From IMG/VR virus record IMGVR_UViG_3300032331_001791, positions 1 through 64,000 of that record: a stretch of DNA of 64,000 nt; one strand, 5' to 3'. Both the position numbers and the translations under genes were made by a program. This stretch comes from a virus. Shown here piece after piece: positions 9,013 to 56,417 of the stretch; the stretch's first letter is position 1, and each line of letters begins with the position of its first letter. Below the pieces are notes generated by a model. It made no database searches, was not told the origin of the DNA, and saw only the letters and a list, made by a program, of their open reading frames with translations.

Positions 9013-10755
9013 ATGGCAGATTCCAATATTTTATTACAAACTTTAGATGCTAGTCTCAAAGCAACTGGGGCTGTATTTGATATTGGAACAAAAACACTAG
9101 GACTTGCGATTGACCAATTAAAAGATCAATTAAAAGAATTTGATGCTTTACAAGAACAATCTTTAGGTATAGGATTAACTTATACAGAAGCTTTAAATAA
9201 AAATAATTTAGCAATAGGTAAATTTGGAGCAACCCTAGACACAGCTTTTAATATAAATCTAAGTTTAGTAAAAAATAGATTAGAAACCAATACAGAAGGT
9301 TTAGTAAAACTTGCAGCCATTCAAGAAGCTCTAGGAATTTCTAGCAAAGAAACAATTTCAACATTTAAACAAGTAGGGATCATAGGAGGGCTGACAAATG
9401 ATCAACTTGGCAATCTAGCTAGAATTACAGCAGATTCAGCACTCATGTACAACACATCTACTGAGGTTCTAGTCAAGGCGTTAGACGCTTTAAAACCAGC
9501 AGTAGAAGGAGCAATGCTTGCAAATGGGGATGTTGCTGGATTAGCAGAAGCTTCTATGATGGCAGTTGCTGCCGCAGGGGAAGCTAATGCTGATAGAATG
9601 ATAGAAGTTATAAACTTCTTAGCTGACCCAAGTATTGAGGCTAGAGCAAAGAAAGCTCAGTTAGGTATTTTAGATAGCACTAATGGATTGCTTTTTGAGA
9701 GTTTAAGTGCAGAGCAAAAAGCTAAATTAGTATTTGATAATATTAATAAAGCTGCGGATACTCTAACTAAGAATTTTGGAAACAACATTAATACAAAAGA
9801 TATTTTAAAATCTTTAGGATTAGAGCAATTAGGAATTTCATTTATTGCTCTTTCTGAGAATGTTGGAGCTTTGAATGTATCAATAGATGAAACCCTTGCG
9901 TCTCAAAGAGCAAATGCTGCATTAAATAATGTTTTTGAAGGTATAGAATCAGCATTTAATAATCTAAAAAGATCTGTTGGTGAAAGAATTGAACCAATAA
10001 CACAAACAATAATAGATGTTGCTAATGCTATAGCTATAGGAATTGGAACTGCTCTTGATCCTATTTTTAAATATTTTGATGAACTTACTCAAAAGCTTAA
10101 AGGAGAAAATAGAGAAAAAATTCTCCAAGAAATTTCAAATACGGTAACACAAGTTACCGCATCATTTTTATCTTTTTTAATAGAATTTGGACAATTTGCT
10201 GTCACTGCTGGAAAGATATTAATTGATTCATTACCTTCTTTAATGGCTATAGCAATGAAACTTCCAGAGGCGATTAATTCAGCTATTAGTTTATATAATG
10301 CAGCCGTTCCAGGGGGAATGGAACTTCCAGAACTCAAAACTCTTAATGATGAAGAAAAAGCAAAACTACAAGAATCTATGAAAGGTCTTACTGATTTAAA
10401 AACTTCATTAGGAAATACTAGTGATAATTTAACTAAAATAAGAGAGTATATGGATAGAACAGCTTCAGCAACAGAACAAACAGCAGAGAATACTGTAAAA
10501 GAACCAGAGAGAAAAAATATATTACAAGATACTAATGATCTGATAAATTCCACATTTAGAGAATTTTTTAGAATTCAAAATGAAATATCTCAAGGAAAAA
10601 CTCTATCTCAAATAGAATCCCATTTAGCTTACGCTGGTATTCAACAAGAAAGAGTATTAGATGCAGCAAGAGAAAATAATAATTTAATGGGAATACAAAC
10701 TAATGCGATTCAAAATCAAGAAATTCCAGCAGTAGCCCCTGCTCCAGGAGATTGA
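9013..10755 (+). CDS. Tail tape measure protein (gp29-like)
   Basis: 580 aa, Ala/Leu-rich helical with hydrophobic stretches; precedes tube-initiator, LysM, hub and spike genes. Confidence 0.7.
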   Translation: MADSNILLQTLDASLKATGAVFDIGTKTLGLAIDQLKDQLKEFDALQEQSLGIGLTYTEALNKNNLAIGKFGATLDTAFNINLSLVKNRLETNTEGLVKLAAIQEALGISSKETISTFKQVGIIGGLTNDQLGNLARITADSALMYNTSTEVLVKALDALKPAVEGAMLANGDVAGLAEASMMAVAAAGEANADRMIEVINFLADPSIEARAKKAQLGILDSTNGLLFESLSAEQKAKLVFDNINKAADTLTKNFGNNINTKDILKSLGLEQLGISFIALSENVGALNVSIDETLASQRANAALNNVFEGIESAFNNLKRSVGERIEPITQTIIDVANAIAIGIGTALDPIFKYFDELTQKLKGENREKILQEISNTVTQVTASFLSFLIEFGQFAVTAGKILIDSLPSLMAIAMKLPEAINSAISLYNAAVPGGMELPELKTLNDEEKAKLQESMKGLTDLKTSLGNTSDNLTKIREYMDRTASATEQTAENTVKEPERKNILQDTNDLINSTFREFFRIQNEISQGKTLSQIESHLAYAGIQQERVLDAARENNNLMGIQTNAIQNQEIPAVAPAPGD

Positions 10756-10761
10756 TAATCC

Positions 10762-11670
10762 ATGACAAATAAGTATGTATATAATCGTGAACTACCATCA
10801 AGATCAAATCTTGTATTCATATTTCCAAATTCAAATGGAGGAACTCCCACTAGAGTAGTGTTACCTTTTTTAGAAAATATTACATTACAAGAAACAAAAG
10901 CTGCTAGATATCAAGATTTTAAATTATTTGGAAGATCTAGTGATCTATACGGATATATGGGAGCAGACTCAAGAAAGTTTAGTTTAGAGTTTTCTCTAAC
11001 ATTCCCACACATTCAGTATGAACATCCAGAATACAATGTTGATAATATAATAAAAGAAAAACAACCTAAAACCACAGAAGTTCCGACTAAGGAAACTATA
11101 CAACAAACACAAGCTGGAACTGCTACTAAAAAGTATCTTGAAAAAAGATCCCAACAATATAATTCTTTATTTACAGAACACATTGCAGATAAATTACCTC
11201 CAGTTCAAGTCTTAGGAGCACCTACTGATGTATCTATTCCTACAATTCAAATTCCAAATATAATAGGAAGTAAATCAGAAATAGATTACTTTCCAAAAAA
11301 TAAAGTAAGAACATCAGAATTAATGTTATATTGGACAAACATAGTAAGAGCTTCTGTAGTTAATGATTCTAAATCCCCTGTTCTAGGTCCACCAATAATT
11401 AGATTGACTCATGGAATTCTATATCAAGATATTCCATGTATTTGTAAAAATTATTCTTTTTCAATAGAAAAAGAATCAACATATGATCTATTTACTTTAA
11501 TGCCTCAAGTAATTAATTTTAGTATGGAATTAGAAGAACTGAGAACTGGGGATTATGGTGAATATGAAAAATCTAAAGTTGTAGTTAGAGACAACTTAGT
11601 TGGATATGAAGCATTATTTGAAAAAGATCGCAGTATGGATCCTGGATCTTTGGAGACACCAATAATATGA
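10762..11670 (+). CDS. Baseplate tube-initiator protein (gp48/gp54-like)
   Basis: GRS..Y.G..SR.FSLEF, PPIIRL.HG.LY..IPC; conserved position after the tape measure. Confidence 0.65.
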   Translation: MTNKYVYNRELPSRSNLVFIFPNSNGGTPTRVVLPFLENITLQETKAARYQDFKLFGRSSDLYGYMGADSRKFSLEFSLTFPHIQYEHPEYNVDNIIKEKQPKTTEVPTKETIQQTQAGTATKKYLEKRSQQYNSLFTEHIADKLPPVQVLGAPTDVSIPTIQIPNIIGSKSEIDYFPKNKVRTSELMLYWTNIVRASVVNDSKSPVLGPPIIRLTHGILYQDIPCICKNYSFSIEKESTYDLFTLMPQVINFSMELEELRTGDYGEYEKSKVVVRDNLVGYEALFEKDRSMDPGSLETPII

Positions 11671-11975: not shown

Positions 11976-14494
11976 CCACTACTTCGTTTGTTCCAACTCC
12001 TTATGTTTTCGTAGCTTTTAAAAAAGAAGCTGTGAATGAATTTAGAGATTTAGTTAGAGCAGGAACAGACGAAGGTTTAATAAAAAAATTTATTGGAAAA
12101 GAAGATTCTGTATTATTTACTAATTACGCGAATCCTAATTTTATTTCTTTTTCTCATGGAATAGCGGCAGGAGATGAATTGGTATGGACCATGAAATTAG
12201 AACTCATAGATCCAACAGAACAATTAGAAAATAGAATTACTAAAGCTTGCTTGTTTCCTAGTATAGTTCAAACTGATTTAAATAATAATCTACAAAAAGA
12301 TCAAAAAGAACTTAGAGCAAATCAAACAACTAATAGTCCAGAAGATTATAAAAACTTAGCTGATGCATTTGCAAAAAAAGTTGAAGATTATGCAAAAAAA
12401 GTAGATGTTAGAAAATATTACATAACTTATGGAATGGGTGCAAATATTGATACTTGGGCGGGAGTTTTTGAGGCTGTTTTGACGGGAGCGGAAATACAAT
12501 ATTCAGAATTTAAAAAGGTAGTGTTAACTCTTACTCCAACAGTACCTGCCTCAAATTCTATGAAAACAAATTCCAAAGCAACAGTAGAACAATACTCTAC
12601 ACCACAAACAGATTTAAGAGTTAGTATTACTGCTGAGTCTAAAGTAATACAGATAAATAAACTTTTAGATCCACAGAATAATTTTTTTAGTATTTATGAT
12701 TATGATGAAACAAGTAAATTTGATTTTGAAAAACCTTTAGTTACAGAAAAATATATGAACCCATTGTTTGATTTTCATTCAATGGTACGAGATCTAATAA
12801 AAAATTCTATATCATCAATTACAAAAAATAATAATGTTTTAGTATTACTTCCAGATTTAAATTATTTATTTTCCTTAACTGAAAAAGAAATATATACTGT
12901 AACTAAAAAAATAAAAGAAAGTAAAAATCAATCGTTATCTAAATCAAGGGAAATACTTAATCCAGAGATTGTTTTACTTGCTGATTCAATTTCTGAATGT
13001 TCAAAAATAGAAAGAATATTGAATATTTTTGCAAATAAAACTTCATTAAATCTATCTAAAATTGATACTACAAGATCTGAAGACATTACTCAAACTCAAA
13101 CTCCTTCAAATAGTACTACAACTCCGCATGAGACTGAATGGGATAGTTTAAAAGGGCCTTATACAGCTAGAAAAAGATACTATGAACAAAATGAATTTAA
13201 ATTATCTAAATCTTCATTAACAGAATACGATGATGGAAAGCCAGACTTTTTTAAATTAATAAAACAAACAGTAAGTGATATATATTATTTTTTACCTCAA
13301 AGAAAACCAAGAGTTAGATTGGTTCACGAATCTAATTTAGATATTTTAAAAGTATGGGAGAATAATTACAAAGATGATCCCATGTTTAAAGATTTAGATT
13401 TAAAAAATCCAGTTTTAATTTTTGGTGATGTTGTGATGATACAAAAATTATATGGATCAAAAAAAGCTAAATTAGAATCTTCCTCCGGGTATCCAAATCC
13501 TAATTCACATTATAATATTTTACATCCAAAAGATAAACTTTTGAATGATTCAAGTTTTCTTGCTAGGATGACCGGGGTAACAAAAAATAAATTTTCATCT
13601 GTAGCTGCTTATTCAAATTTAACAACAGTTCCTGATACTTTTGCGTATGCTCTGGAGAAAACTGGAATAACTAATAAAGATCTAATGGATCTCCCTGTAT
13701 TTAGATATAATTTAAAAAATCCAAATATATTAAAAATAAAAGCTTTTGCTAATACAATTTATTTTAGTGAACTTGCAGAGGGATTCCAAAAAGAAGTTAC
13801 TAGAAAAATTTCTAGACACTTAGCTGGTCCATACAACGAAGAAACAAAATTAAATCCATTCTTAAATGAGACTGCTGTTTTAGCATATATTCAAGATAGA
13901 CTAAGTAGAGAAGGATCATCACAAGCTACCATTGAAAAAATTTCCTCTGATTTAAAAGATAATTATACCGTAAATAAAGGACTCCCTGGAGTTCCAGCAA
14001 TAATTCCAGGAACTCCTGCAACTTTAGAATCAGGAGAAACTTTTTTTACTGAACCAGAAATTTTATCTTATTATATTACTGATTTAATACGACAAGTTCA
14101 AGAAACTAATGGATTTTTATCTAAAACTTATATTACTGATTATGATTTCCATGATCCATCTCTTTACCCACAAATAAATAGACAATTTGATATACTTAAT
14201 AGATTTTTTAGTATTCAGATAGAAACTCTTCCAATGTTTGCTTTATCAGATGTTTCTTTAATAAATTCTCCTTGTTTTATATTTGCAAAGTCCCCACAAG
14301 TAGTTAATTCTGATTTAGAAAATTCAACAAAGCAAAAATTAAAAAATAATTATTTAGATTTTGTCTCTAATAGTTATATCTTTATGGGATTTAAACATAC
14401 AATAAAGACAGGAAAGCTATCTTCAGAGTTTATGTTAACTAGAGATTTAGGAAAAACAGGGATTATCCAAAAAGATCAAGAGGATATAGAATGA
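11972..14494 (+). CDS. Baseplate hub protein (gp27-like by position)
   Basis: Lies between the LysM and spike genes; C-terminal 'Y...G.KH.I......SEF.L' hub-like ending. Confidence 0.55.
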   Translation: MTTTSFVPTPYVFVAFKKEAVNEFRDLVRAGTDEGLIKKFIGKEDSVLFTNYANPNFISFSHGIAAGDELVWTMKLELIDPTEQLENRITKACLFPSIVQTDLNNNLQKDQKELRANQTTNSPEDYKNLADAFAKKVEDYAKKVDVRKYYITYGMGANIDTWAGVFEAVLTGAEIQYSEFKKVVLTLTPTVPASNSMKTNSKATVEQYSTPQTDLRVSITAESKVIQINKLLDPQNNFFSIYDYDETSKFDFEKPLVTEKYMNPLFDFHSMVRDLIKNSISSITKNNNVLVLLPDLNYLFSLTEKEIYTVTKKIKESKNQSLSKSREILNPEIVLLADSISECSKIERILNIFANKTSLNLSKIDTTRSEDITQTQTPSNSTTTPHETEWDSLKGPYTARKRYYEQNEFKLSKSSLTEYDDGKPDFFKLIKQTVSDIYYFLPQRKPRVRLVHESNLDILKVWENNYKDDPMFKDLDLKNPVLIFGDVVMIQKLYGSKKAKLESSSGYPNPNSHYNILHPKDKLLNDSSFLARMTGVTKNKFSSVAAYSNLTTVPDTFAYALEKTGITNKDLMDLPVFRYNLKNPNILKIKAFANTIYFSELAEGFQKEVTRKISRHLAGPYNEETKLNPFLNETAVLAYIQDRLSREGSSQATIEKISSDLKDNYTVNKGLPGVPAIIPGTPATLESGETFFTEPEILSYYITDLIRQVQETNGFLSKTYITDYDFHDPSLYPQINRQFDILNRFFSIQIETLPMFALSDVSLINSPCFIFAKSPQVVNSDLENSTKQKLKNNYLDFVSNSYIFMGFKHTIKTGKLSSEFMLTRDLGKTGIIQKDQEDIE

Positions 14495-49022: not shown

Positions 49023-51578
49023 ATGAATTATTTCCAAGAACTGCTTGAGAGTTATGATAGGTTAAAGAAGAGAACCTTTAAATTAGTTTATATCAATGAA
49101 CAAGTTCCGCAAACTGGTAATTCAGCATTTGAAACTTTACTAAGTGCTTGGAATGGTGCTGGAAAAAAAGCATCTGAGGCTATTGATTTGGGAATTAATA
49201 ATCAATATGCGGCTTATGGATTTAAAACTGTAAAAGGGCAATCTACTCCTGTTCAAGCAAGAATGATTAGAAAAAAAGATGGGGGAATAATTCCAGGTTA
49301 TAACTCTCCTTACTTAGACTTAGATTCTAGTATATCTCCAGAACAAAAAGAAAAAATAGCAAATGCAATAATTGGTGGACAACAACCCTCACAACCTTCT
49401 CCTGAACAACAAGCTCAAAGGACTCCTGAACAGCCTCAAACGCCAGAGGAGTTAGCATATCAACAGGCTATAACTAAAGGATCACCAGAGTATTTACAGC
49501 AACTACAAAAACCACTAGAACCAGAGTTGCAAAGAGAACTTTTCTTTAGATCATATGAACTAAAGAAATTATGTAAGCCAGTTGAAAAAGGGGGCCCAGT
49601 TCCAGATTTTTGTGTTGAATTAGGCTTAGGTGGAGAATCCAGAGCAGGAACTTTAGGAATTGGATCTAGCCAAAAATCATTTGAAAAAAAGGTAGCTGAA
49701 GGTGCTGCCTTTGCTCGTAATGCAGAGACAAGATTGATAGAAAAAACTGAATCTCTTTCTTTAGAACAAAGAACCCAAGCTGTAGAGGGATGGAAAGATT
49801 TAACCCAAGTTTTAATTGATCCTAATTTAGTTGATTGTAATAAAATATTCAATAATATTAGAATAAATGTTCCAAGTGAAAAAGGGGGTAGATCTACCAA
49901 AATAATTTTTGGTCCTATTAATGAAGGATTAGAAAAATCTGTAGTAACCTCTGCTGGATCTTTAGAAAAAGAATCCATAAAAAGAATAAAGAAGCATTGT
50001 AAAAAAGATTTTAATTCAGCAAAACTTACAGTAGCAGCAGGAAATAAGTATTCAATCAGAGGAACTTTTTTTGAAAAATGTACAAATTTTGCTTTTAGAA
50101 TAAAATCTCTTCAAAGACTTCAACAAAATTGTGTTAGTGGAGATAAGAAATCTTGCAGTAATGCAGATGCTCGTAGAAAAGAATTAGCTTCTGATATAGT
50201 ATCACATATAGAAACTGTAAGAGCAAATGCTATAACAACTCAACTATCAGAGGATATTGTATCAACTACTGAATATACCGCAGTAATGGATATTCTTAAA
50301 GAACATCAAGAATTTGATACTCCTGCTGTATTACAATTCTTAGCTAGAGAAAATGCTTACGCTTCACAATTAGTTAATTCTTATTTTCCTAATGCTGTTG
50401 GTGTAATAGATTCTTCTTTAAATCCAAAAACAGGTAACAGAGCAGATAGAAAAGTTTTATATCTAGATCAGAAGTCAGCAGTTTCTGATATGTCTAAATT
50501 GGGTGGATCAGTAACTTCTGTTAAAATATCTGATTATATTTCAAAATGTTCTACTGATACTACTAATCCTGTGTGCTCTGAGCTAAAAGATCTTATGGAA
50601 GATTATAAACTAAATGAAAATTCAATAATACATTTAGGAGATTTAGGATTAAAGAGAGTTACAGATTTAGAAAGTGGAGTTACCGCTGGTTCTTTTAGTG
50701 GTGCTAGACGATTATATGATTTATTTAAGAGAACTCCCTTAGCAAAAATACAAAATGGAGATAGAATTGAAGAAGGATACATATCTAAAATAGATGAACT
50801 TCAAGAAGTTGTACCTAATAGTCCTAGAGATAAAAAAATGCAAGAAGTAGAAGATAATGTTGACAATATTTTATCTTCATTTTATTCTCATATATCTGGT
50901 AATGTAATAAATATTCCTAGTGGAAAACAAAAAGCCCTTGTTGATTTAAATAAACCAACTCAAGTTGTTGAATTACTAAAGAAAACTTTGAGGGAAAGAG
51001 TTAGTAATGATATTTTACAAAATAGTTCTTTAGGAAAACTACTTAAACCAAATAATTTTAAAGGGCAAGAGTCTAGAGAAGAGTCTGCTGGTTTACTGAT
51101 GAGATATGTTCGTCATCATATGTATAGAAAACAACTCAAAGAAAATCCAGAAGCAACAACAGATGCTCTACTTAGAAAATTATATATATGTGGAGCTAAT
51201 AAAACAGAGTTAGTTCAAAGTATAGTAGATGATACTGGTCAAAATTTAAGCTTTAATCATAATCAAGTTTTTAGAAATTTAGAACAAGCAAAGAAAGAAA
51301 ATAGAATTAGATTAGAAGTAAAAGATTCATCTGTAAAATATTTTGTAACTGAACCTTCTGGTCAAGAAGTTTTATATGCAGAACTAGGAGAAGATGTAAA
51401 AATTATAGGTACAGGGCAATCTACTCACAAGTTTGCAGCAGAATTTAGTACAGGGGCAGCTAGATCTGCTATAGTTCTGAATGAAGGAAAAGAAGCATCT
51501 TCTATAGATAAAGAAAAACTTATAGAAGAGTTTATTAAAATACAACAAAAACTATTAGAATGTTTTAGTTCAAAGTAA
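49023..51578 (+). CDS. Large hypothetical protein, possibly an internal/ejected head protein
   Basis: 851 aa; N-terminal LLE/INE and C-terminal LNE/LIE/LLE motifs; CTATAATA 5' of the start. Confidence 0.55.
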   Translation: MNYFQELLESYDRLKKRTFKLVYINEQVPQTGNSAFETLLSAWNGAGKKASEAIDLGINNQYAAYGFKTVKGQSTPVQARMIRKKDGGIIPGYNSPYLDLDSSISPEQKEKIANAIIGGQQPSQPSPEQQAQRTPEQPQTPEELAYQQAITKGSPEYLQQLQKPLEPELQRELFFRSYELKKLCKPVEKGGPVPDFCVELGLGGESRAGTLGIGSSQKSFEKKVAEGAAFARNAETRLIEKTESLSLEQRTQAVEGWKDLTQVLIDPNLVDCNKIFNNIRINVPSEKGGRSTKIIFGPINEGLEKSVVTSAGSLEKESIKRIKKHCKKDFNSAKLTVAAGNKYSIRGTFFEKCTNFAFRIKSLQRLQQNCVSGDKKSCSNADARRKELASDIVSHIETVRANAITTQLSEDIVSTTEYTAVMDILKEHQEFDTPAVLQFLARENAYASQLVNSYFPNAVGVIDSSLNPKTGNRADRKVLYLDQKSAVSDMSKLGGSVTSVKISDYISKCSTDTTNPVCSELKDLMEDYKLNENSIIHLGDLGLKRVTDLESGVTAGSFSGARRLYDLFKRTPLAKIQNGDRIEEGYISKIDELQEVVPNSPRDKKMQEVEDNVDNILSSFYSHISGNVINIPSGKQKALVDLNKPTQVVELLKKTLRERVSNDILQNSSLGKLLKPNNFKGQESREESAGLLMRYVRHHMYRKQLKENPEATTDALLRKLYICGANKTELVQSIVDDTGQNLSFNHNQVFRNLEQAKKENRIRLEVKDSSVKYFVTEPSGQEVLYAELGEDVKIIGTGQSTHKFAAEFSTGAARSAIVLNEGKEASSIDKEKLIEEFIKIQQKLLECFSSK

Positions 51579-52100: not shown

Positions 52101-52111
52101 ACTATAATAGT
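52101..52111. promoter_or_regulatory. ACTATAATAGT near-palindrome, candidate bidirectional promoter
   Basis: Same core as at 4697 and 53128; located at a divergent junction. Confidence 0.5.
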
Positions 52112-52460: not shown

Positions 52461-52787
52461 ATGTTTAATTTAATTTTCTTATCAAAAGAAAATGATCTCA
52501 ACAAGATTCTAAGAAATCAAAAAAGAAATAAGGATACAATTAATATTTTATTTATATCCTTATGGGATGATTATTGCAATGAACTTGTAGATAAGATTAA
52601 AGAAAAATACAGCGCAGTATCGGACGCTAAAGAAGACTTATATATTGTAGATAGTTTCAATATGCCGCATAGTTTTGTAATATATGAAGTTACAAAAACT
52701 CCAGAGTTAGTAATCTTAAGAAAAGATAAGCCAGCGTTTATTGAATCCTATTTGCCGAAGATATATGATTATTTGAATATCAAGTAA
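52461..52787 (+). CDS. Thioredoxin-fold protein with degenerate active site (WDDYC)
   Basis: F.S.WDDYC..., Y.VD, Y.V.KTP.L: cis-Pro thioredoxin pattern. Confidence 0.6.
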   Translation: MFNLIFLSKENDLNKILRNQKRNKDTINILFISLWDDYCNELVDKIKEKYSAVSDAKEDLYIVDSFNMPHSFVIYEVTKTPELVILRKDKPAFIESYLPKIYDYLNIK

Positions 52788-53124
52788 TATTATCTTTATT
52801 TTTATCAATGTATCCTTGAATTTTTATATTATATCTCTTATTTTTAGAGTATAATAATTTTAGATTATTAAGGATAATTGTTGTAAAGTATGTAAAGGCT
52901 GTTCCTTTTTTTGCTTTAAAATTTTTCAGAGTTTTTAGTATTAAAAAGAAACAGTCTTGCTTTGCATCTTCTTTTTCTAATTTAAAATTAAATCCCTCTA
53001 TTATATTCTCAATTAAAAGGTCGAACATCTTCATAAGTTCGTCCTCATGTTTTTCGGGGTTCTTCTTATACTTGCGTATAAGAGCTTCAAATTCTTTATT
53101 ATTTATGTAATTTTTTTTTGCCAT
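52780..53124 (-). CDS. Late-transcription sigma factor (T4 gp55-like), minimal
   Basis: NYINNKEF N-terminus and AFTYFTTII region 2 motif. Confidence 0.8.
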   Translation of the reverse strand: MAKKNYINNKEFEALIRKYKKNPEKHEDELMKMFDLLIENIIEGFNFKLEKEDAKQDCFFLILKTLKNFKAKKGTAFTYFTTIILNNLKLLYSKNKRYNIKIQGYIDKNKDNIT

Positions 53125-53127
53125 ACC

Positions 53128-53136
53128 CTATAATAG
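53128..53136. promoter_or_regulatory. CTATAATAG element in the 16-bp gap between the divergent sigma and polymerase genes
   Basis: TATAAT 6 nt before ATG 53141; TATTAT on the minus strand 5 nt before ATG 53124. Confidence 0.55.
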
Positions 53137-53140
53137 TACA

Positions 53141-54157
53141 ATGGATTTAGAGAAGCTTTATAAAGGTGTTGATGTTGCTCCTGATAACCCTTTGTGTTCT
53201 GGCTGTAACATCTTAACTAAAACTAAACCTTTTTATTGTGGTCTGGATTATCTTAATCTGGAACAGAGTGATGTTTTATTTTTATCGGATTCTCTAAAGT
53301 ATAAGTTTGGGAAGTCTTACGCTTTTACAGACATTGAGGAAGAGTTAATTAAATCTGTCTTTCCTCACCAATATGCTACTGCTGCTGCGGTAAAATGTCC
53401 TTCTGTTAAAGAGGCCGATATTACTCCAGCCAGCATGAACATTTGTAGAGCGCATCTTATTCCTACGATTGACAAGGTTAAGCCTAAGCTGGTTTACGCC
53501 TGTGGAAATCTAGCTATGAAGATGCTTATCAAGAAGAGTGGGATTACGGATAAGCGGGGAAACTCGTATGATTACGAGACTCCTAATGGGCACAAGTGCG
53601 TTGTTGTTCCTATCTTCCATCCCTATGCAATCATAAATGAGCCTAGGCATAAGCCTACTTTTGAGTCTGATATTCTTAATGGATATGATAAACATATCCG
53701 TGGAAATACTAAGCAGACCAAAATGGATTATACTTTGGTAAGGGATTTAAAGACTCTTCAAGAACTCGCTGTCAGAATAAAGAATCATACAGGGCCAATA
53801 GCTGTTGATATTGAAACTACGGGTCTTAATTTCCTACAGGATAAGATTATGACTGTAGGTATTGCGACAGATGATATATCTATTGTAGTTCCTGTCGAGC
53901 ACAAAGAATTTAATTGGAACGACACTGGCTCGTCTGTTGTCAAGGTATGCGAATTAATTCAAGAAGCTTTGAGCGGTAACTCAATCAAGGTTCTTCATAA
54001 TGCCAAGTTTGATCTTAAGTTCCTGCATCGTTACGGTGTCAGCATCACTAATATTGCAGATACAAAGATCATGTCGCATATGATCAATGAAGAAGGTAAG
54101 AATAGTCTTAAGGATCTTGTCAAGCAATTTTTCCCTGAGTATTTGGAGAAACTCTAA
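53141..54157 (+). CDS. polA: DNA polymerase A part 1: family-4 UDG-like domain plus 3'-5' exonuclease motifs I and II
   Basis: CxxC...KC...C (Fe-S), PIFHP; DIETTG and HNAKFD. Confidence 0.85.
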   Translation: MDLEKLYKGVDVAPDNPLCSGCNILTKTKPFYCGLDYLNLEQSDVLFLSDSLKYKFGKSYAFTDIEEELIKSVFPHQYATAAAVKCPSVKEADITPASMNICRAHLIPTIDKVKPKLVYACGNLAMKMLIKKSGITDKRGNSYDYETPNGHKCVVVPIFHPYAIINEPRHKPTFESDILNGYDKHIRGNTKQTKMDYTLVRDLKTLQELAVRIKNHTGPIAVDIETTGLNFLQDKIMTVGIATDDISIVVPVEHKEFNWNDTGSSVVKVCELIQEALSGNSIKVLHNAKFDLKFLHRYGVSITNIADTKIMSHMINEEGKNSLKDLVKQFFPEYLEKL

Positions 54158-54651
54158 TGTTAGGTATTACTGATCCGGGTAAGTTTGATTGGGAAAACAT
54201 TTCTCTTTCAGCGTGTGCTAATGGAAACTACATGGACGCACACTTCACTCTTCAACTCTTTTACATCTTCCAAAAGAAGATGGAAGAGAAGAAGATGGAT
54301 AAAGTGTTCTTTAAGGTTATATGCCCAGCCCTGAATGAGTTTGCATTAATTGAATATAATGGTATTAATGTATCTACTGAAAAGCTAGACGAGGTTGGAA
54401 AGCAACTTCGTAATAAGAATATTGATCAGGAAGATCTTCTCTACGATTGTAAGGGAATTACCAAGGAAGACAACCTATCATCAAACAACGACTTGATCGA
54501 CATTCTGTATACCAGAGAGGGTGGTCTTGAACTTTATCCTCCTGATAAAACAGCTAAAGGATCTCCATCTGTTTCAGCACCAACACTAGAACTTCTTTTG
54601 GACTTTATTAATCAGGAGCTTGCATCCCGTGTCAAAGTGGAAAAATCGTGA
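54157..54651 (+). CDS. polA: DNA polymerase A part 2: ExoIII region plus thumb
   Basis: NYMDAHFTLQL, IEYNGI, NLSSNNDL..ILY, T.KG.PS; TAATG coupling and GGAG RBS. Confidence 0.8.
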   Translation: MLGITDPGKFDWENISLSACANGNYMDAHFTLQLFYIFQKKMEEKKMDKVFFKVICPALNEFALIEYNGINVSTEKLDEVGKQLRNKNIDQEDLLYDCKGITKEDNLSSNNDLIDILYTREGGLELYPPDKTAKGSPSVSAPTLELLLDFINQELASRVKVEKS

Positions 54652-55747
54652 AGAGAATAAGGACATTGCTAAGTCTGTTATTTCTAGCAAGTCCACAGAG
54701 GATCTTCGTGAGTCTAAGAAATTTATTGAGGGGTTGCTCAACCTCCGTAAGTCTGAGAAGCTAGAGAAGACCTACATTCAAGGAACTAAGTCCGCTATTG
54801 AATATAATGGTCTAGATAAAGTTTATGTTGATTTTCGCTTTGATGGAACAGCTACAGGGCGTTTATCTTGTGCTGCCTATTCAGCTAAGGAAGATATGGG
54901 TGTTTCTTTCCATACTCTGCCCCGTGAAACAGAGAACAACATCCGCTCGATCTTTGTAGCTCCAAAGGACCAAGCCTTCATCACTGTAGACTACGCAGCG
55001 ATGGAACTGCGTGTCCTTGCCCACATTGCCAAAGAGAAGGTCATGCAGAAGGCGTTCATTGATGGAGCAGACCTGCATACTTATACAGCCGAGCTTCTGT
55101 TTAATAAGAAGAAGATCTCGAAGGATGAGCGTCAGATTGCTAAGACAGTATCCTTCTTGATTGTTTACGGTGGTGGAGCGTACAATCTTTCAGAGACTAT
55201 GAACATTCCTCTTAAGCGTGCCGAGAAGATTATCCAGAACTACCAAAGAGTTTATCCTGGAATCTTTTCATACATGGAGTTTGTTAATCAGTTTATTCTG
55301 CAAAACCAGTATGCATATACCATCTTTGGTAGACGCAGGAATCTGGTGGATGTTACTTCTAAAGAGCAGTCAGTAGTTAATCGAGCACTGCGACAAGGAC
55401 TTAACTTCACTATTCAAAGCACTGCCTCCGATATTCTTCTTTGTGGAATGCTTGGGTGTTGCAACGAGTTTCGTAAGAATTTATTGAAGGCAAGACCTGT
55501 AGCAACCGTTCACGATAGTTTGGAAGTAGTCTGCCCTTATGATGAAGTAGAGAAAACTTTAGAGATTATCTACGATCAAATGGTGAATGTTCCTATAATA
55601 AAGGATACATTTAATATTAACTTCTCTGTTCCATTTAAGATCGACGCAGAGGTAGGACACTCTTTTGGTGATGGTAAAGAAGTTAACTTTGAGAATGGCA
55701 AACCCACAAATATGACAGAAATTTTAGGATATTTAAATGAAGGTTGA
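54629..55747 (+). CDS. polA: DNA polymerase A part 3: palm/fingers catalytic domain
   Basis: TATGRLS, motif A DYAAMELRVLAH, motif B RQIAKTVSFLIVYG, motif C VHDS; probable GTG start at 54629 with AGGAG at 54614-54618. Confidence 0.92.
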   Translation: MSKWKNREENKDIAKSVISSKSTEDLRESKKFIEGLLNLRKSEKLEKTYIQGTKSAIEYNGLDKVYVDFRFDGTATGRLSCAAYSAKEDMGVSFHTLPRETENNIRSIFVAPKDQAFITVDYAAMELRVLAHIAKEKVMQKAFIDGADLHTYTAELLFNKKKISKDERQIAKTVSFLIVYGGGAYNLSETMNIPLKRAEKIIQNYQRVYPGIFSYMEFVNQFILQNQYAYTIFGRRRNLVDVTSKEQSVVNRALRQGLNFTIQSTASDILLCGMLGCCNEFRKNLLKARPVATVHDSLEVVCPYDEVEKTLEIIYDQMVNVPIIKDTFNINFSVPFKIDAEVGHSFGDGKEVNFENGKPTNMTEILGYLNEG

Positions 55748-56417
55748 ATGCCTAGATAAAGGGTATGTAGAATTAATTACATATACTCCAGGGGGAGATT
55801 TACTTGTAGTTAATGCAGCTAGATGTTCTTTTGATAAGGAGCATAAAATATTTAATGAAGACAAAGATTCTAAACTTATCTCTTACCTTGCACGGCATGG
55901 GCATTTATTGCCATTTAGACACCCTCACGCTACCTTTCGTATACATTGCCCCATCTTTGTATTACGCCAGCTAGGGAAGCATCAGGTTGGTTTTAGTTGG
56001 AGCGAAGTTTCTAGACGCTATATAACTTCGGAGCCTGAGTTTTACACTCCAAAGGATTGGAGAGAGAAGGCTCCTAATGTAAAGCAAGGAAGTCTTCAAC
56101 AGGTTTCTGAATACAGCACTTTTGCTACTAGTGACCATAGTGATCTAATTAAAATGTCGTTAGGAATGTATAACGATTTATTAAATCAAGGGATCTGTGC
56201 CGAGCAAGCCCGTATGATTCTTCCTCAATCCATGTATACGACCACTGTAACAACTGGGTCATTGCTAGGCTGGCATCATCTTTGGGAGCAGAGAACGGAT
56301 TCTCATGCCCAGCTAGAGACTCAGGAGTACGCACAGGCAATTGGTCATATGATGAGTAAGCTTTATCATTATAGTTGGAAAGCACTTTGTGATGAGAAAA
56401 ACGCAGATAATCGGTGA
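55737..56417 (+). CDS. thyX: FAD-dependent thymidylate synthase
   Basis: VNAARCSF, H..PF.H, SEVSRRY, EQARMILP, HAQ.E. Confidence 0.93.
   Translation: MKVECLDKGYVELITYTPGGDLLVVNAARCSFDKEHKIFNEDKDSKLISYLARHGHLLPFRHPHATFRIHCPIFVLRQLGKHQVGFSWSEVSRRYITSEPEFYTPKDWREKAPNVKQGSLQQVSEYSTFATSDHSDLIKMSLGMYNDLLNQGICAEQARMILPQSMYTTTVTTGSLLGWHHLWEQRTDSHAQLETQEYAQAIGHMMSKLYHYSWKALCDEKNADNR

What the first reader, a model, noticed from the sequence alone, without database searches (positions are those of the whole stretch)
53141..55747. Family A DNA polymerase encoded as three coupled ORFs, cut inside the exonuclease and the thumb
Seen: ExoI and ExoII are in ORF1, ExoIII plus most of the thumb in ORF2, and the end of the thumb plus motifs A/B/C in ORF3. 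Junction 1 is a TAATG overlap with GGAG 8 nt upstream. Junction 2 has AGGAG 10 nt before GTG 54629, with extra non-canonical residues on both sides of the break. No intein or intron sequence is present. The ExoIII position normally Tyr (YxxxD) is Gly (GNYMD). Inference: an evolved heterotrimeric PolA whose proofreading site must assemble from two chains, in a T4-like replisome that normally uses PolB.
Basis: partly seen in the sequence, partly recalled or inferred. Interest (0 to 1): 0.75.

Follow-up and report, generated by a model that had tools for sequence, protein, structure and literature searches.

The report
Three-gene split phage DNA polymerase
An uncultured tailed phage, like hundreds of related environmental phage contigs, encodes its only detectable DNA polymerase as three separate genes, cut inside the proofreading domain and inside the thumb, so the enzyme most likely works as a three-protein complex.

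Summary
ORF1 (53141-54157) carries a UDG-like domain plus ExoI/ExoII. ORF2 (54157-54651) carries ExoIII plus most of the thumb. ORF3 (GTG 54629-55747) carries the rest of the polymerase with motifs A/B/C. This is not an assembly artefact, intron, intein or pseudogene. All 80 related viral contigs examined keep junction 2. All 77 with a detectable ORF1 keep junction 1. Synonymous sites are saturated while amino acids are conserved.

In 33 of the 77 contigs, other genes (173-1735 bp, some on the opposite strand) sit between ORF1 and ORF2. In most of these ORF2 then has its own promoter-like motif. A start codon is always present at the homologous ORF3 position (GTG, ATG in about 10, four-base ATGA overlap in 7).

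Syntenic relatives have only junction 1, and in a quick tree the three-part forms are one clade. Junction 2 lies in a lineage-specific thumb insertion. ExoIII Tyr is Gly in every split-clade member and Tyr in every unsplit relative hit.

Physical assembly and exonuclease activity are inferred, not shown. The "T4-like replisome" clause is unsupported. Multi-gene PolAs are known (S-SBP1, LUZ24), so this is a new variant. The scan has noted this family on other DNA.

The parts
53128..53137 (+). CTATAATAGT promoter-like motif 3 nt upstream of the ORF1 ATG; no Shine-Dalgarno fits in between
   Evidence: Related TATAATATATAG/TATTATATATAG motifs sit 2 nt before the ORF2 ATG in most relatives that carry an insert at junction 1.
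53141..54157 (+). ORF1, 338 aa. Family-4 UDG-like domain (about residues 1-190; Cys19, Cys22, Cys86, Cys102) plus the N-terminal two thirds of the 3'-5' exonuclease domain (ExoI DIETTGL 53807-53827; ExoII HNAKFD 53996-54013)
54145..54159 (+). Junction 1: GGAG, 8 nt, then ATG overlapping the ORF1 stop (TAATG)
   Evidence: The same 1-nt stop/start overlap (TAATG in nearly all) occurs in 44 of 77 related loci; 33 of 77 carry inserted genes here.
54157..54651 (+). ORF2, 164 aa. ExoIII helix (GNYMD 54223-54237, with Gly in place of the canonical Tyr) plus the start of the polymerase domain and most of the thumb. The last ~14 aa are the first half of a lineage-specific insertion
54614..54651 (+). 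Junction 2: AGGAG 54614-54618, 10 nt, GTG 54629 (ORF3 start), 23-nt overlap with ORF2, ORF2 stop TGA 54649-54651
   Evidence: All 80 related loci carry a start codon in the ORF3 frame overlapping the end of ORF2, with GTG or ATG at the homologous M-x-K-W position in every junction printed. L006 has an ATGA overlap.
54629..55747 (+). ORF3, 372 aa. Second half of the thumb insertion (about residues 1-33), TGRLS (54854-54868), motif A VDYAAMELR (Asp at 54989-54991), motif B RQIAKTVSFLIVYG (55130-55171), motif C HDS (55511-55519)
55737..56417 (+). ThyX thymidylate synthase gene overlapping the end of ORF3 by 11 nt. This is context in the same tight gene string, not part of the polymerase

Best explanation
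The window encodes a UDG-fused family A DNA polymerase whose gene has been broken, in evolution, into three separately translated genes. The three products are expected to reassemble without covalent joining into one polymerase/exonuclease.

In this window the genes most likely share one transcript that starts at the promoter-like motif just before ORF1. ORF2 would be translated by stop-start coupling at TAATG, with GGAG 8 nt upstream. ORF3 would start at GTG 54629, behind AGGAG and inside the end of ORF2.

ORF1 supplies the UDG-like domain and the ExoI/ExoII carboxylates. ORF2 supplies the ExoIII aspartate and most of the thumb. ORF3 supplies the rest of the thumb, the palm and the fingers with motifs A, B and C. 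The exonuclease metal site would therefore exist only in the ORF1-ORF2 complex, and the DNA-binding thumb only in the ORF2-ORF3 complex.

Likely history: the cut inside the exonuclease domain, in a variable surface linker, came first and is shared with two-gene relatives. A 35-45-aa insertion then arose in the thumb, and the second cut happened once inside that insertion.

Shown here: gene structure, its conservation, purifying selection, independent start signals and intact catalytic motifs. Inferred: physical assembly, stoichiometry and activity.
For: Structure and mapping.

Conservation of both cuts: 8 close and medium relatives keep them. Stand-alone ORF2 homologues of 158-165 aa fill 335 clusters at 90% identity. 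In a library searched without length limits, the 96 hits at E<=1e-10 are, apart from a few short fragments and three ORF2+ORF3 fusions, stand-alone proteins of about 157-181 aa that match from residue 1. In 80 viral contigs, junction 2 is present in 80 of 80 and junction 1 in 77 of 77 where ORF1 was found.

Independent genes:
- 33 of 77 loci have 173-1735 bp of other genes between ORF1 and ORF2. Some are on the opposite strand, and cargo includes a GT2 glycosyltransferase and lipoprotein-like ORFs.
- In most of those loci ORF2 is preceded by a conserved TATAATATATAG-type motif.
- The ORF3 start codon is GTG in most loci and ATG in about 10, always at the same M-x-K-W position. Meanwhile the last ORF2 codon varies (GGG/GAG/GGC/GTC/GGT) and the ORF2 stop position varies.

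Selection: pN is 0.09-0.35 against pS 0.68-0.92 for all three ORFs.

History: the syntenic loci L010 and L011 have ORF1 plus a fused ORF2-ORF3 that begins with the same ML(T/S)I N-terminus. The fused P0229 carries the thumb insertion uninterrupted. In the quick tree the 34 three-part rows form one starred clade, with the two-part forms between it and unsplit outgroups. Junction 1 aligns with a length-variable linker of single-chain UDG-PolAs.

Catalytic residues: ExoI D/E, ExoII D, ExoIII D, and the motif A, B and C residues are conserved.

Precedent for non-covalent split polymerases: PhiKZ PolB, split within an insertion and a stable 1:1 complex (PMC13648687); S-SBP1 exo|pol PolA (PMC10201439).
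Against: There is no direct evidence that the three proteins bind each other or that the complex is active.

The ExoIII tyrosine that defines DEDDy exonucleases is replaced by Gly throughout the clade, so proofreading may be weakened or lost.

The GGAG/GAGGAG elements upstream of both internal starts also encode conserved residues (LE.L; EEL). Their conservation is therefore not clean evidence for ribosome binding.

The tree has very long branches for the two-part and unsplit rows, so the order of events is provisional.

All sequences come from metagenome assemblies. No cultured member was found in the phage collection.
Confidence: 0.85

Rival explanations
1. The three chains assemble, but the exonuclease part is only a structural scaffold, as in Taq or Bst Pol I. 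Loss of the ExoIII tyrosine together with the cut through the domain would have abolished proofreading.
For: Gly replaces the canonical Tyr in every member of the split clade, about 95 representatives. Every unsplit PolA hit keeps Y-x3-D apart from one with Phe. PolAs are reported to need the exo domain for stability even when it is inactive (PMC10201439).
Against: All four metal-binding carboxylates (ExoI D and E, ExoII D, ExoIII D) and the ExoII Asn/Phe are conserved across relatives down to about 33-38% identity. Vestigial exo domains usually lose them (my knowledge of Taq/Bst). An invariant Asn follows the Gly, and Tyr or His is common two residues after the Asp, which could partly substitute.
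Confidence: 0.3
2. Junction 2 is bridged by a programmed +1 ribosomal frameshift. ORF2 and ORF3 would then be made partly or wholly as one polypeptide, giving a two-subunit enzyme.
For: ORF3 lies +1 relative to ORF2 with a short overlap. The commonest relatives read CGT GGG TAA G, with a GAGGAG upstream. Fused ORF2-ORF3 genes exist in relatives.
Against: A start codon (GTG or ATG) sits at the homologous position in all 80 loci. Seven loci and L006 have a plain ATGA stop-start overlap. The last ORF2 codon is not conserved (GGG, GAG, GGC, GTC, GGT), and in the window lineage the stop lies 15 nt further on. No fixed slippery site therefore exists. The GAGGAG lies about 10 nt before the GTG, a spacing that suits initiation rather than RF2-type +1 shifting (my knowledge of prfB).
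Confidence: 0.06
3. The pieces do not form one enzyme. ORF3 would be a stand-alone, exonuclease-less polymerase, and ORF1 and ORF2 would have taken on separate roles such as a UDG-like or DNA-binding factor.
For: Many relatives separate ORF1 from ORF2 by other genes, usually with a separate promoter-like motif, so the expression of ORF1 and ORF2 can be uncoupled.
Against: ORF2 alone would be an ExoIII helix plus a thumb fragment with no complete domain. ORF1, ORF2 and ORF3 always co-occur in the same order, and each is under strong purifying selection. ORF3 lacks most of the thumb that PolA needs to hold duplex DNA (my knowledge of PolA structure).
Confidence: 0.05
4. The breaks are assembly or sequencing errors, or the gene is a decaying pseudogene.
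For: In the window ORF1 and ORF3 share a frame, so two compensating indels were conceivable.
Against: The same breaks occur in more than 80 independent contigs from many samples, at up to about 50% divergence. Frame relations differ among them and genes are inserted at junction 1. pN is far below pS.
Confidence: 0.01

Closest known systems
Single-chain UDG-PolA polymerases of phages (SPO1, SP-10, SP-15 type and N4-like cluster 17; Czernecki et al. 2023, PMC10201439)
   Same: The domain order is the same: family-4 UDG-like, then 3'-5' exo, then PolA. The nearest unsplit hits to ORF2 (P0250, P0252, P0253, P0275, P0258) have exactly this architecture. The best cultured-phage hits include Bacillus SP-10 and SPO1-like phages at about 30% identity.
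   Different: Those are one polypeptide (some with inteins) and keep Y-x3-D in ExoIII. Here the same layout is spread over three genes and the Tyr is Gly.
Two-gene exo|pol PolA of S-SBP1-like T7-like cyanophages (Czernecki et al. 2023, PMC10201439)
   Same: This is gene fission of a PolA by a frame change with a new stop and a new start. There is no intein or intron, and the pieces are predicted to reassemble.
   Different: That case has one cut, placed between the complete exo domain and the pol domain. The subfamily differs (T7-like) and there is no UDG domain. Here there are two cuts, and the first divides the exonuclease active site itself.
LUZ24-like Pseudomonas phages (Bruynoghevirus): gp25 'DNA polymerase exonuclease subunit', gp34 'DNA polymerase part II', gp36 'DNA polymerase'
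   Same: A PolA encoded as three separate genes in a cultured phage, as annotated in NC_010325.
   Different: gp25 holds all of ExoI, ExoII and a canonical ExoIII YCLQD (read), so the exo site is not divided. The second cut lies late in the pol domain: gp36 matches Pfam profile positions 295-381. The three genes are dispersed among other genes, and no UDG domain was seen in the region examined.
MEP401-type OM43 phages (PMC10580990)
   Same: A PolA in two ORFs, cut inside the polymerase domain, with a small unknown ORF between them.
   Different: There is a single cut, the exo domain stays intact with the N-terminal part of the pol domain, and the authors left an intron open as a possibility.
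PhiKZ split family B polymerase DNAP-N/DNAP-C (PMC13648687)
   Same: A phage replicative polymerase in two genes, cut inside a lineage-specific insertion and shown to be a stable 1:1 complex. This is the best experimental precedent for junction 2.
   Different: It is family B, not family A. It has two pieces, and its exonuclease domain is not divided.

Membership tests
Family A DNA polymerase (Pfam PF00476) | Profile match above the curated cut-off | tested here: met
   ORF3 scores 252.6 bits against a cut-off of 34.3, over profile positions 59-380 of 381. The own-genome search gives 252.3 bits.
Family A DNA polymerase (Pfam PF00476) | Catalytic motifs A (D-Y-x3-E-L-R), B (R-x3-K-x3-F-x3-Y-G) and C (H-D-x) | tested here: met
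   VDYAAMELR, RQIAKTVSFLIVYG and VHDSLE are aligned to Bst Pol I and invariant in A3. Motif C reads HDS rather than HDE.
DEDDy (DnaQ-like) 3'-5' exonuclease of PolA (Pfam PF01612) | ExoI D-x-E and ExoII N-x2-(F/Y)-D carboxylates | tested here: met
   DIETTGL and HNAKFD are in ORF1 (PF01612 61.7 bits). The D, E and D are invariant in A2.
DEDDy (DnaQ-like) 3'-5' exonuclease of PolA (Pfam PF01612) | ExoIII Y-x3-D on the same chain | tested here: not met
   The Asp is present, but the Tyr position is Gly (GNYMD). The motif lies on ORF2, a different chain from ExoI/II. Gly at that position is clade-wide, followed by Asn in all but two members.
UDG-PolA (family-4 UDG domain fused to PolA) | N-terminal family-4 UDG-like domain | tested here: met
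   Pfam UDG scores 30.8 bits against a cut-off of 24.3, at ORF1 residues 75-175. PDB family-4 UDG chains match at 4.3e-5.
UDG-PolA (family-4 UDG domain fused to PolA) | Catalytic competence of the UDG domain (motif A and the motif B histidine) | tested here: inconclusive
   FHPYA keeps the motif B His. Four Cys are spaced as I recall Fe-S ligands to be spaced in family-4 UDGs. The motif A region is not matched by the profile. L010 and L011 lack the His, and L011 also lacks the Cys.
Naturally split (multi-gene) PolA, as in S-SBP1-like or LUZ24-like phages | Separate ORFs with their own stops and starts, conserved among relatives | tested here: met
Naturally split (multi-gene) PolA, as in S-SBP1-like or LUZ24-like phages | Same breakpoints or the same lineage as the described cases | tested here: not met
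   S-SBP1 is cut between exo and pol. LUZ24 gp25 holds the whole exo domain. Here the cuts fall between ExoII and ExoIII and in the thumb.
Intein- or intron-interrupted polymerase gene | An intervening intein or intron sequence, or split-intein halves at the termini | tested here: not met
   The ORFs overlap, so there is no intervening DNA in the window. None of the three ORFs has an intein domain. The tails at junction 2 are colinear with an uninterrupted insertion in P0229. No RNA-structure search for introns was run on relatives' inserts, but these carry ordinary ORFs, some on the opposite strand.
T4-type replisome | PolB (gp43) with a gp45 sliding clamp | tested here: not met
   PF00136 and PF09116 find nothing in the 92-kb record, which is 82% complete. 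A DnaB-like helicase, SbcCD-like nuclease, RNR and ThyX are present.

The most novel reading that the evidence does not exclude
The cut through the exonuclease domain and the clade-wide Tyr-to-Gly change in ExoIII may be functionally linked. The proofreading site would exist only when ORF1 docks on ORF2, and would use a different residue to position the attacking water. Candidates are the invariant Asn next to the Gly, or the Tyr/His two residues after the Asp. Proofreading, and perhaps the UDG-like function, would then be a dissociable and separately expressed module. This fits relatives in which ORF1 and ORF2 are separated, with ORF2 behind its own promoter-like motif. The thumb insertion cut at junction 2 could likewise be a docking site for another replisome protein.
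Probability: 0.15. Interest if true: 0.75.

Novelty: new variant of a known kind. Interest (0 to 1): 0.58.

Why it matters
Family A polymerases are the textbook single-chain polymerases and workhorses of biotechnology. A natural version that is abundant in marine and freshwater viral metagenomes works from three chains. One cut runs through the proofreading active site and one through the thumb, and both show where the fold tolerates fission.

It gives a ready-made system for testing how exonuclease and polymerase sites communicate, and whether the ExoIII tyrosine is dispensable.

It also matters for annotation. The 164-aa middle gene has no Pfam or PHROG hit, so these phages can be scored as having a truncated or missing polymerase.

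The two-part and three-part relatives, and the repeated gain and loss of cargo genes at junction 1, document stepwise gene fission in a core replication enzyme.

Tried and rejected
- Complex prediction on the three chains with ORF2 as partner returned 'no answer'. The score was 0.91, but a control with chain 3 replaced scored 0.88, presumably because ORF1 was kept. It is not used for or against binding.
- AlphaFold2 of ORF2 alone with a 15-row alignment gave mean pLDDT 47. That is too poor for a fold search, so none was run.
Genomic context of the fused forms came from the search for related loci instead.
- I first thought the overlapping Bst alignments of the ORF2 tail and the ORF3 head meant a small duplication at junction 2. 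The colinear uninterrupted insertion in P0229 makes a duplication unnecessary, so I dropped the idea.
- I looked for homing endonucleases in the junction 1 inserts as the cause of the split. Pfam found none, only a GT2 glycosyltransferase and unannotated ORFs.
- P0244, P0247, P0277 and P0283 looked like ORF1+ORF2 fusions cut at junction 2. They are fragments of ordinary bacterial-type Pol I with a canonical ExoIII Tyr.
- DNA-level search of the phage collection found nothing.
- With one mismatch allowed, CTATAATAGT is no more frequent in the window than chance.
- No canonical -1 slippery heptamer lies before junction 1 (read).
Full report
**What is there.** Three + strand ORFs occupy 53141-54157 (338 aa), 54157-54651 (164 aa) and 54629-55747 (372 aa from GTG; an in-frame TTG lies at 54620). 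Pfam places a UDG-superfamily domain at ORF1 residues 75-175 and DNA_pol_A_exo1 at residues 197-331. It finds nothing in ORF2. It places DNA_pol_A (profile 59-380 of 381, 252.6 bits) in ORF3.

Against Klenow fragment, ORF1 197-329 aligns to chain positions 7-141, ORF2 13-150 to 164-298 and ORF3 34-321 to 302-584. The three ORFs are therefore colinear with one PolA. Cut 1 falls between ExoII and ExoIII. Cut 2 falls at about Pol I residue 621-625, or about Bst residue 561-566. From my memory of the Bst subdomain limits, that lies in the last third of the thumb.

ExoI (DIETTGL) and ExoII (HNAKFD) are in ORF1. ExoIII is GNYMD in ORF2, with Gly aligned to Klenow Tyr497 and Asp to Asp501. Motifs A, B and C are intact in ORF3. 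It missed the UDG-like domain.

**It is real and old.** Eight viral contigs at 70-99% (ORF3) identity keep the same three ORFs. The most distant of them, L006, has two minus-strand ORFs between ORF1 and ORF2 and an ATGA stop-start overlap at junction 2. Its frame relations differ from the window's. This excludes compensating assembly indels.

Stand-alone ORF2 homologues of 158-165 aa fill 335 clusters at 90% identity, from JGI, ENA, Tara and other sources. A search of 1.8 billion representatives without length limits gave 96 hits at E<=1e-10. Apart from a few short fragments and three ORF2+ORF3 fusions, these are proteins of about 157-181 aa that match from residue 1.

In 80 further viral contigs, ORF3 is always in a different frame from ORF2. 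It overlaps the end of ORF2 in 80 of 80, and an ORF1 homologue ends just upstream in 77 of 77 where it was found. Between the window and L002, L003 and L006, synonymous sites are saturated (pS 0.68-0.92) while pN is 0.09-0.35 in all three ORFs. All three are therefore under purifying selection.

**They are separate genes.** In 33 of the 77 loci, 173-1735 bp lie between ORF1 and ORF2. These stretches hold diverse ORFs, often on the opposite strand:
- lipoprotein-like ORFs;
- small basic ORFs;
- a GT2 glycosyltransferase;
- none recognisable as a homing endonuclease.

In most of those loci the ORF2 ATG is preceded, two bases away, by a conserved TATAATATATAG or TATTATATATAG motif. This resembles the CTATAATAGT that sits 3 nt before the ORF1 ATG in the window. 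ORF2 can thus be expressed on its own.

At junction 2 the start codon sits at the same M-x-K-W position throughout:
- GTG with an 8-nt overlap in 59 loci;
- ATG in about 10, seven of them as a four-base ATGA overlap;
- GTG with a 23-nt overlap in the window's lineage (six loci).

The last ORF2 codon (GGG, GAG, GGC, GTC, GGT) and the position of the ORF2 stop both vary. That pattern fits selection for a start codon and argues against a fixed frameshift site. No intein domain was found, and there is no room for an intron.

**History.** The syntenic loci L010 and L011 share the neighbouring genes: a PDDEXK nuclease gene (in L010), a small thioredoxin-like gene, a divergent sigma-like gene, and downstream Mre11-like genes (ThyX in L010, Rad50-like in L011). 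They carry an ORF1 homologue ending ...FPxxxxxL. It is followed by one 515-563-aa protein that starts with the ORF2 N-terminus (MLTI/MLSI) and runs on into ORF3 sequence. Junction 1 is therefore shared by two-part and three-part forms, and junction 2 is specific to the latter.

The fused protein of L010 (P0229) carries an uninterrupted 35-45-aa insertion. It is colinear with the ORF2 tail plus the ORF3 head, and P0226, P0243 and Klenow lack it. Cut 2 therefore lies inside a lineage-specific thumb insertion. This is the same situation as in the PhiKZ split PolB.

A quick maximum-likelihood tree of concatenated exo, ORF2 and ORF3 sequence puts all 34 three-part rows in one starred clade. The two-part forms lie between it and the single-chain UDG-PolA outgroups. 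The outgroup and two-part branches are very long, so the order is provisional. On that tree, loci with and without junction 1 inserts are interleaved, so cargo was gained or lost repeatedly. Junction 1 aligns with a length-variable linker of single-chain UDG-PolAs, and no residues are missing.

**The ExoIII change.** Every member of the split clade, two-part or three-part and about 95 representatives in all, has Gly at the Tyr position. Asn follows it in all but two. Every unsplit PolA hit in the same search has Y-x3-D apart from one with Phe, including the nearest UDG-exo-PolA single chains, which read YNxxDxHYT. The four carboxylates remain conserved. I cannot tell whether proofreading is retained with another residue helping or has been lost. 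I put about 0.3 on loss.

**Context.** The record is a 92-kb viral contig, 82% complete. It has a tail sheath, baseplate wedge, major head protein and head protease. It also has a DnaB-like helicase, a second helicase, an SbcCD-like nuclease, RNR and ThyX. There is no PolB and no gp45-type clamp. The split PolA is the only polymerase found, and 'a T4-like replisome that normally uses PolB' is not supported. No cultured phage in the collection has this gene family.

**Comparison with what is known.**
- UDG-PolA fusions are described, as is a two-gene exo|pol split in T7-like cyanophages, called the first in PolAs (PMC10201439).
- OM43 phages of the MEP401 type have a two-ORF PolA cut in the pol domain (PMC10580990).
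- LUZ24 is annotated with three dispersed PolA genes. Its gp25 holds a complete ExoI-III with a canonical Tyr, and its last piece covers profile positions 295-381.
- I found no paper that describes a PolA cut between ExoII and ExoIII or this three-gene family. The searches were limited to the open-access library.

I therefore rate it a new variant of a known kind.

**Earlier notes of this scan.** The same family was noted on other genomes, and a two-gene relative as well. These notes agree with my reading but are not independent evidence. One of them gave the LUZ24 lead, which I tested.

**Limits.** The complex prediction gave no verdict. Assembly, stoichiometry and activities remain inferences.

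Noticed in passing
Cys19, Cys22, Cys86 and Cys102 are spaced as I recall the 4Fe-4S ligands of family-4 UDGs, and FHPYA keeps the motif B His. The motif A region is not matched by the profile. The homologue in L011 has lost the cysteines, and both L010 and L011 have lost the His.
   Followed up: partly
L012-L091, between the ORF1 and ORF2 homologues (e.g. L077 2321-3106, L021 2980-3477, L030 2487-3476; also L006 3499-4479 and L010 3729-4007): Junction 1 is a hotspot for cargo genes. 33 of 77 loci carry 173-1735 bp with diverse ORFs: a GT2 glycosyltransferase, lipoprotein-like ORFs with a signal peptide and Cys, and small basic proteins. These loci are scattered over the polymerase tree, so the inserts were gained or lost many times.
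   Followed up: partly
window 53128-53137, 52102-52111, 4697-4706; relatives, 2 nt upstream of the ORF2 ATG: CTATAATAGT (window) and TATAATATATAG or TATTATATATAG (relatives) lie only 2-3 nt before start codons, leaving no room for a Shine-Dalgarno. This suggests phage promoters that give leaderless or near-leaderless mRNAs. A small sigma-like gene (52780-53124, minus strand; Sigma70_r2 at 2.1e-4, below the cut-off) lies next door. With one mismatch the motif is not over chance in the window.
   Followed up: partly
window 55511-55519: Motif C reads HDS instead of the usual HDE. The Ser is conserved in all relatives examined, including the two-part forms.
   Followed up: no
P0250 and P0252 (nearest single-chain UDG-PolAs): These unsplit relatives carry inteins inside the polymerase domain: LAGLIDADG in P0250 and HNH plus Hint in P0252. 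Related polymerase genes are thus targets of mobile elements, although none is present at the two cuts here.
   Followed up: no
window 49023-51578: An 851-aa ORF directly upstream of the replication block has no Pfam or PHROG hit.
   Followed up: no
L092 (Pseudomonas phage LUZ24, NC_010325) 7147-7656, 10000-11181, 12025-12306: The LUZ24 PolA is annotated as three dispersed genes. gp25 contains complete ExoI-III with a canonical YCLQD. gp34 matches the early pol profile only weakly (22 bits). gp36 covers profile positions 295-381.
   Followed up: partly
window 55737-55747: The thyX start overlaps the end of ORF3 by 11 nt, and the Mre11-like, Rad50-like and RNR genes follow with overlaps. The polymerase genes are part of one tightly packed gene string.
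   Followed up: no
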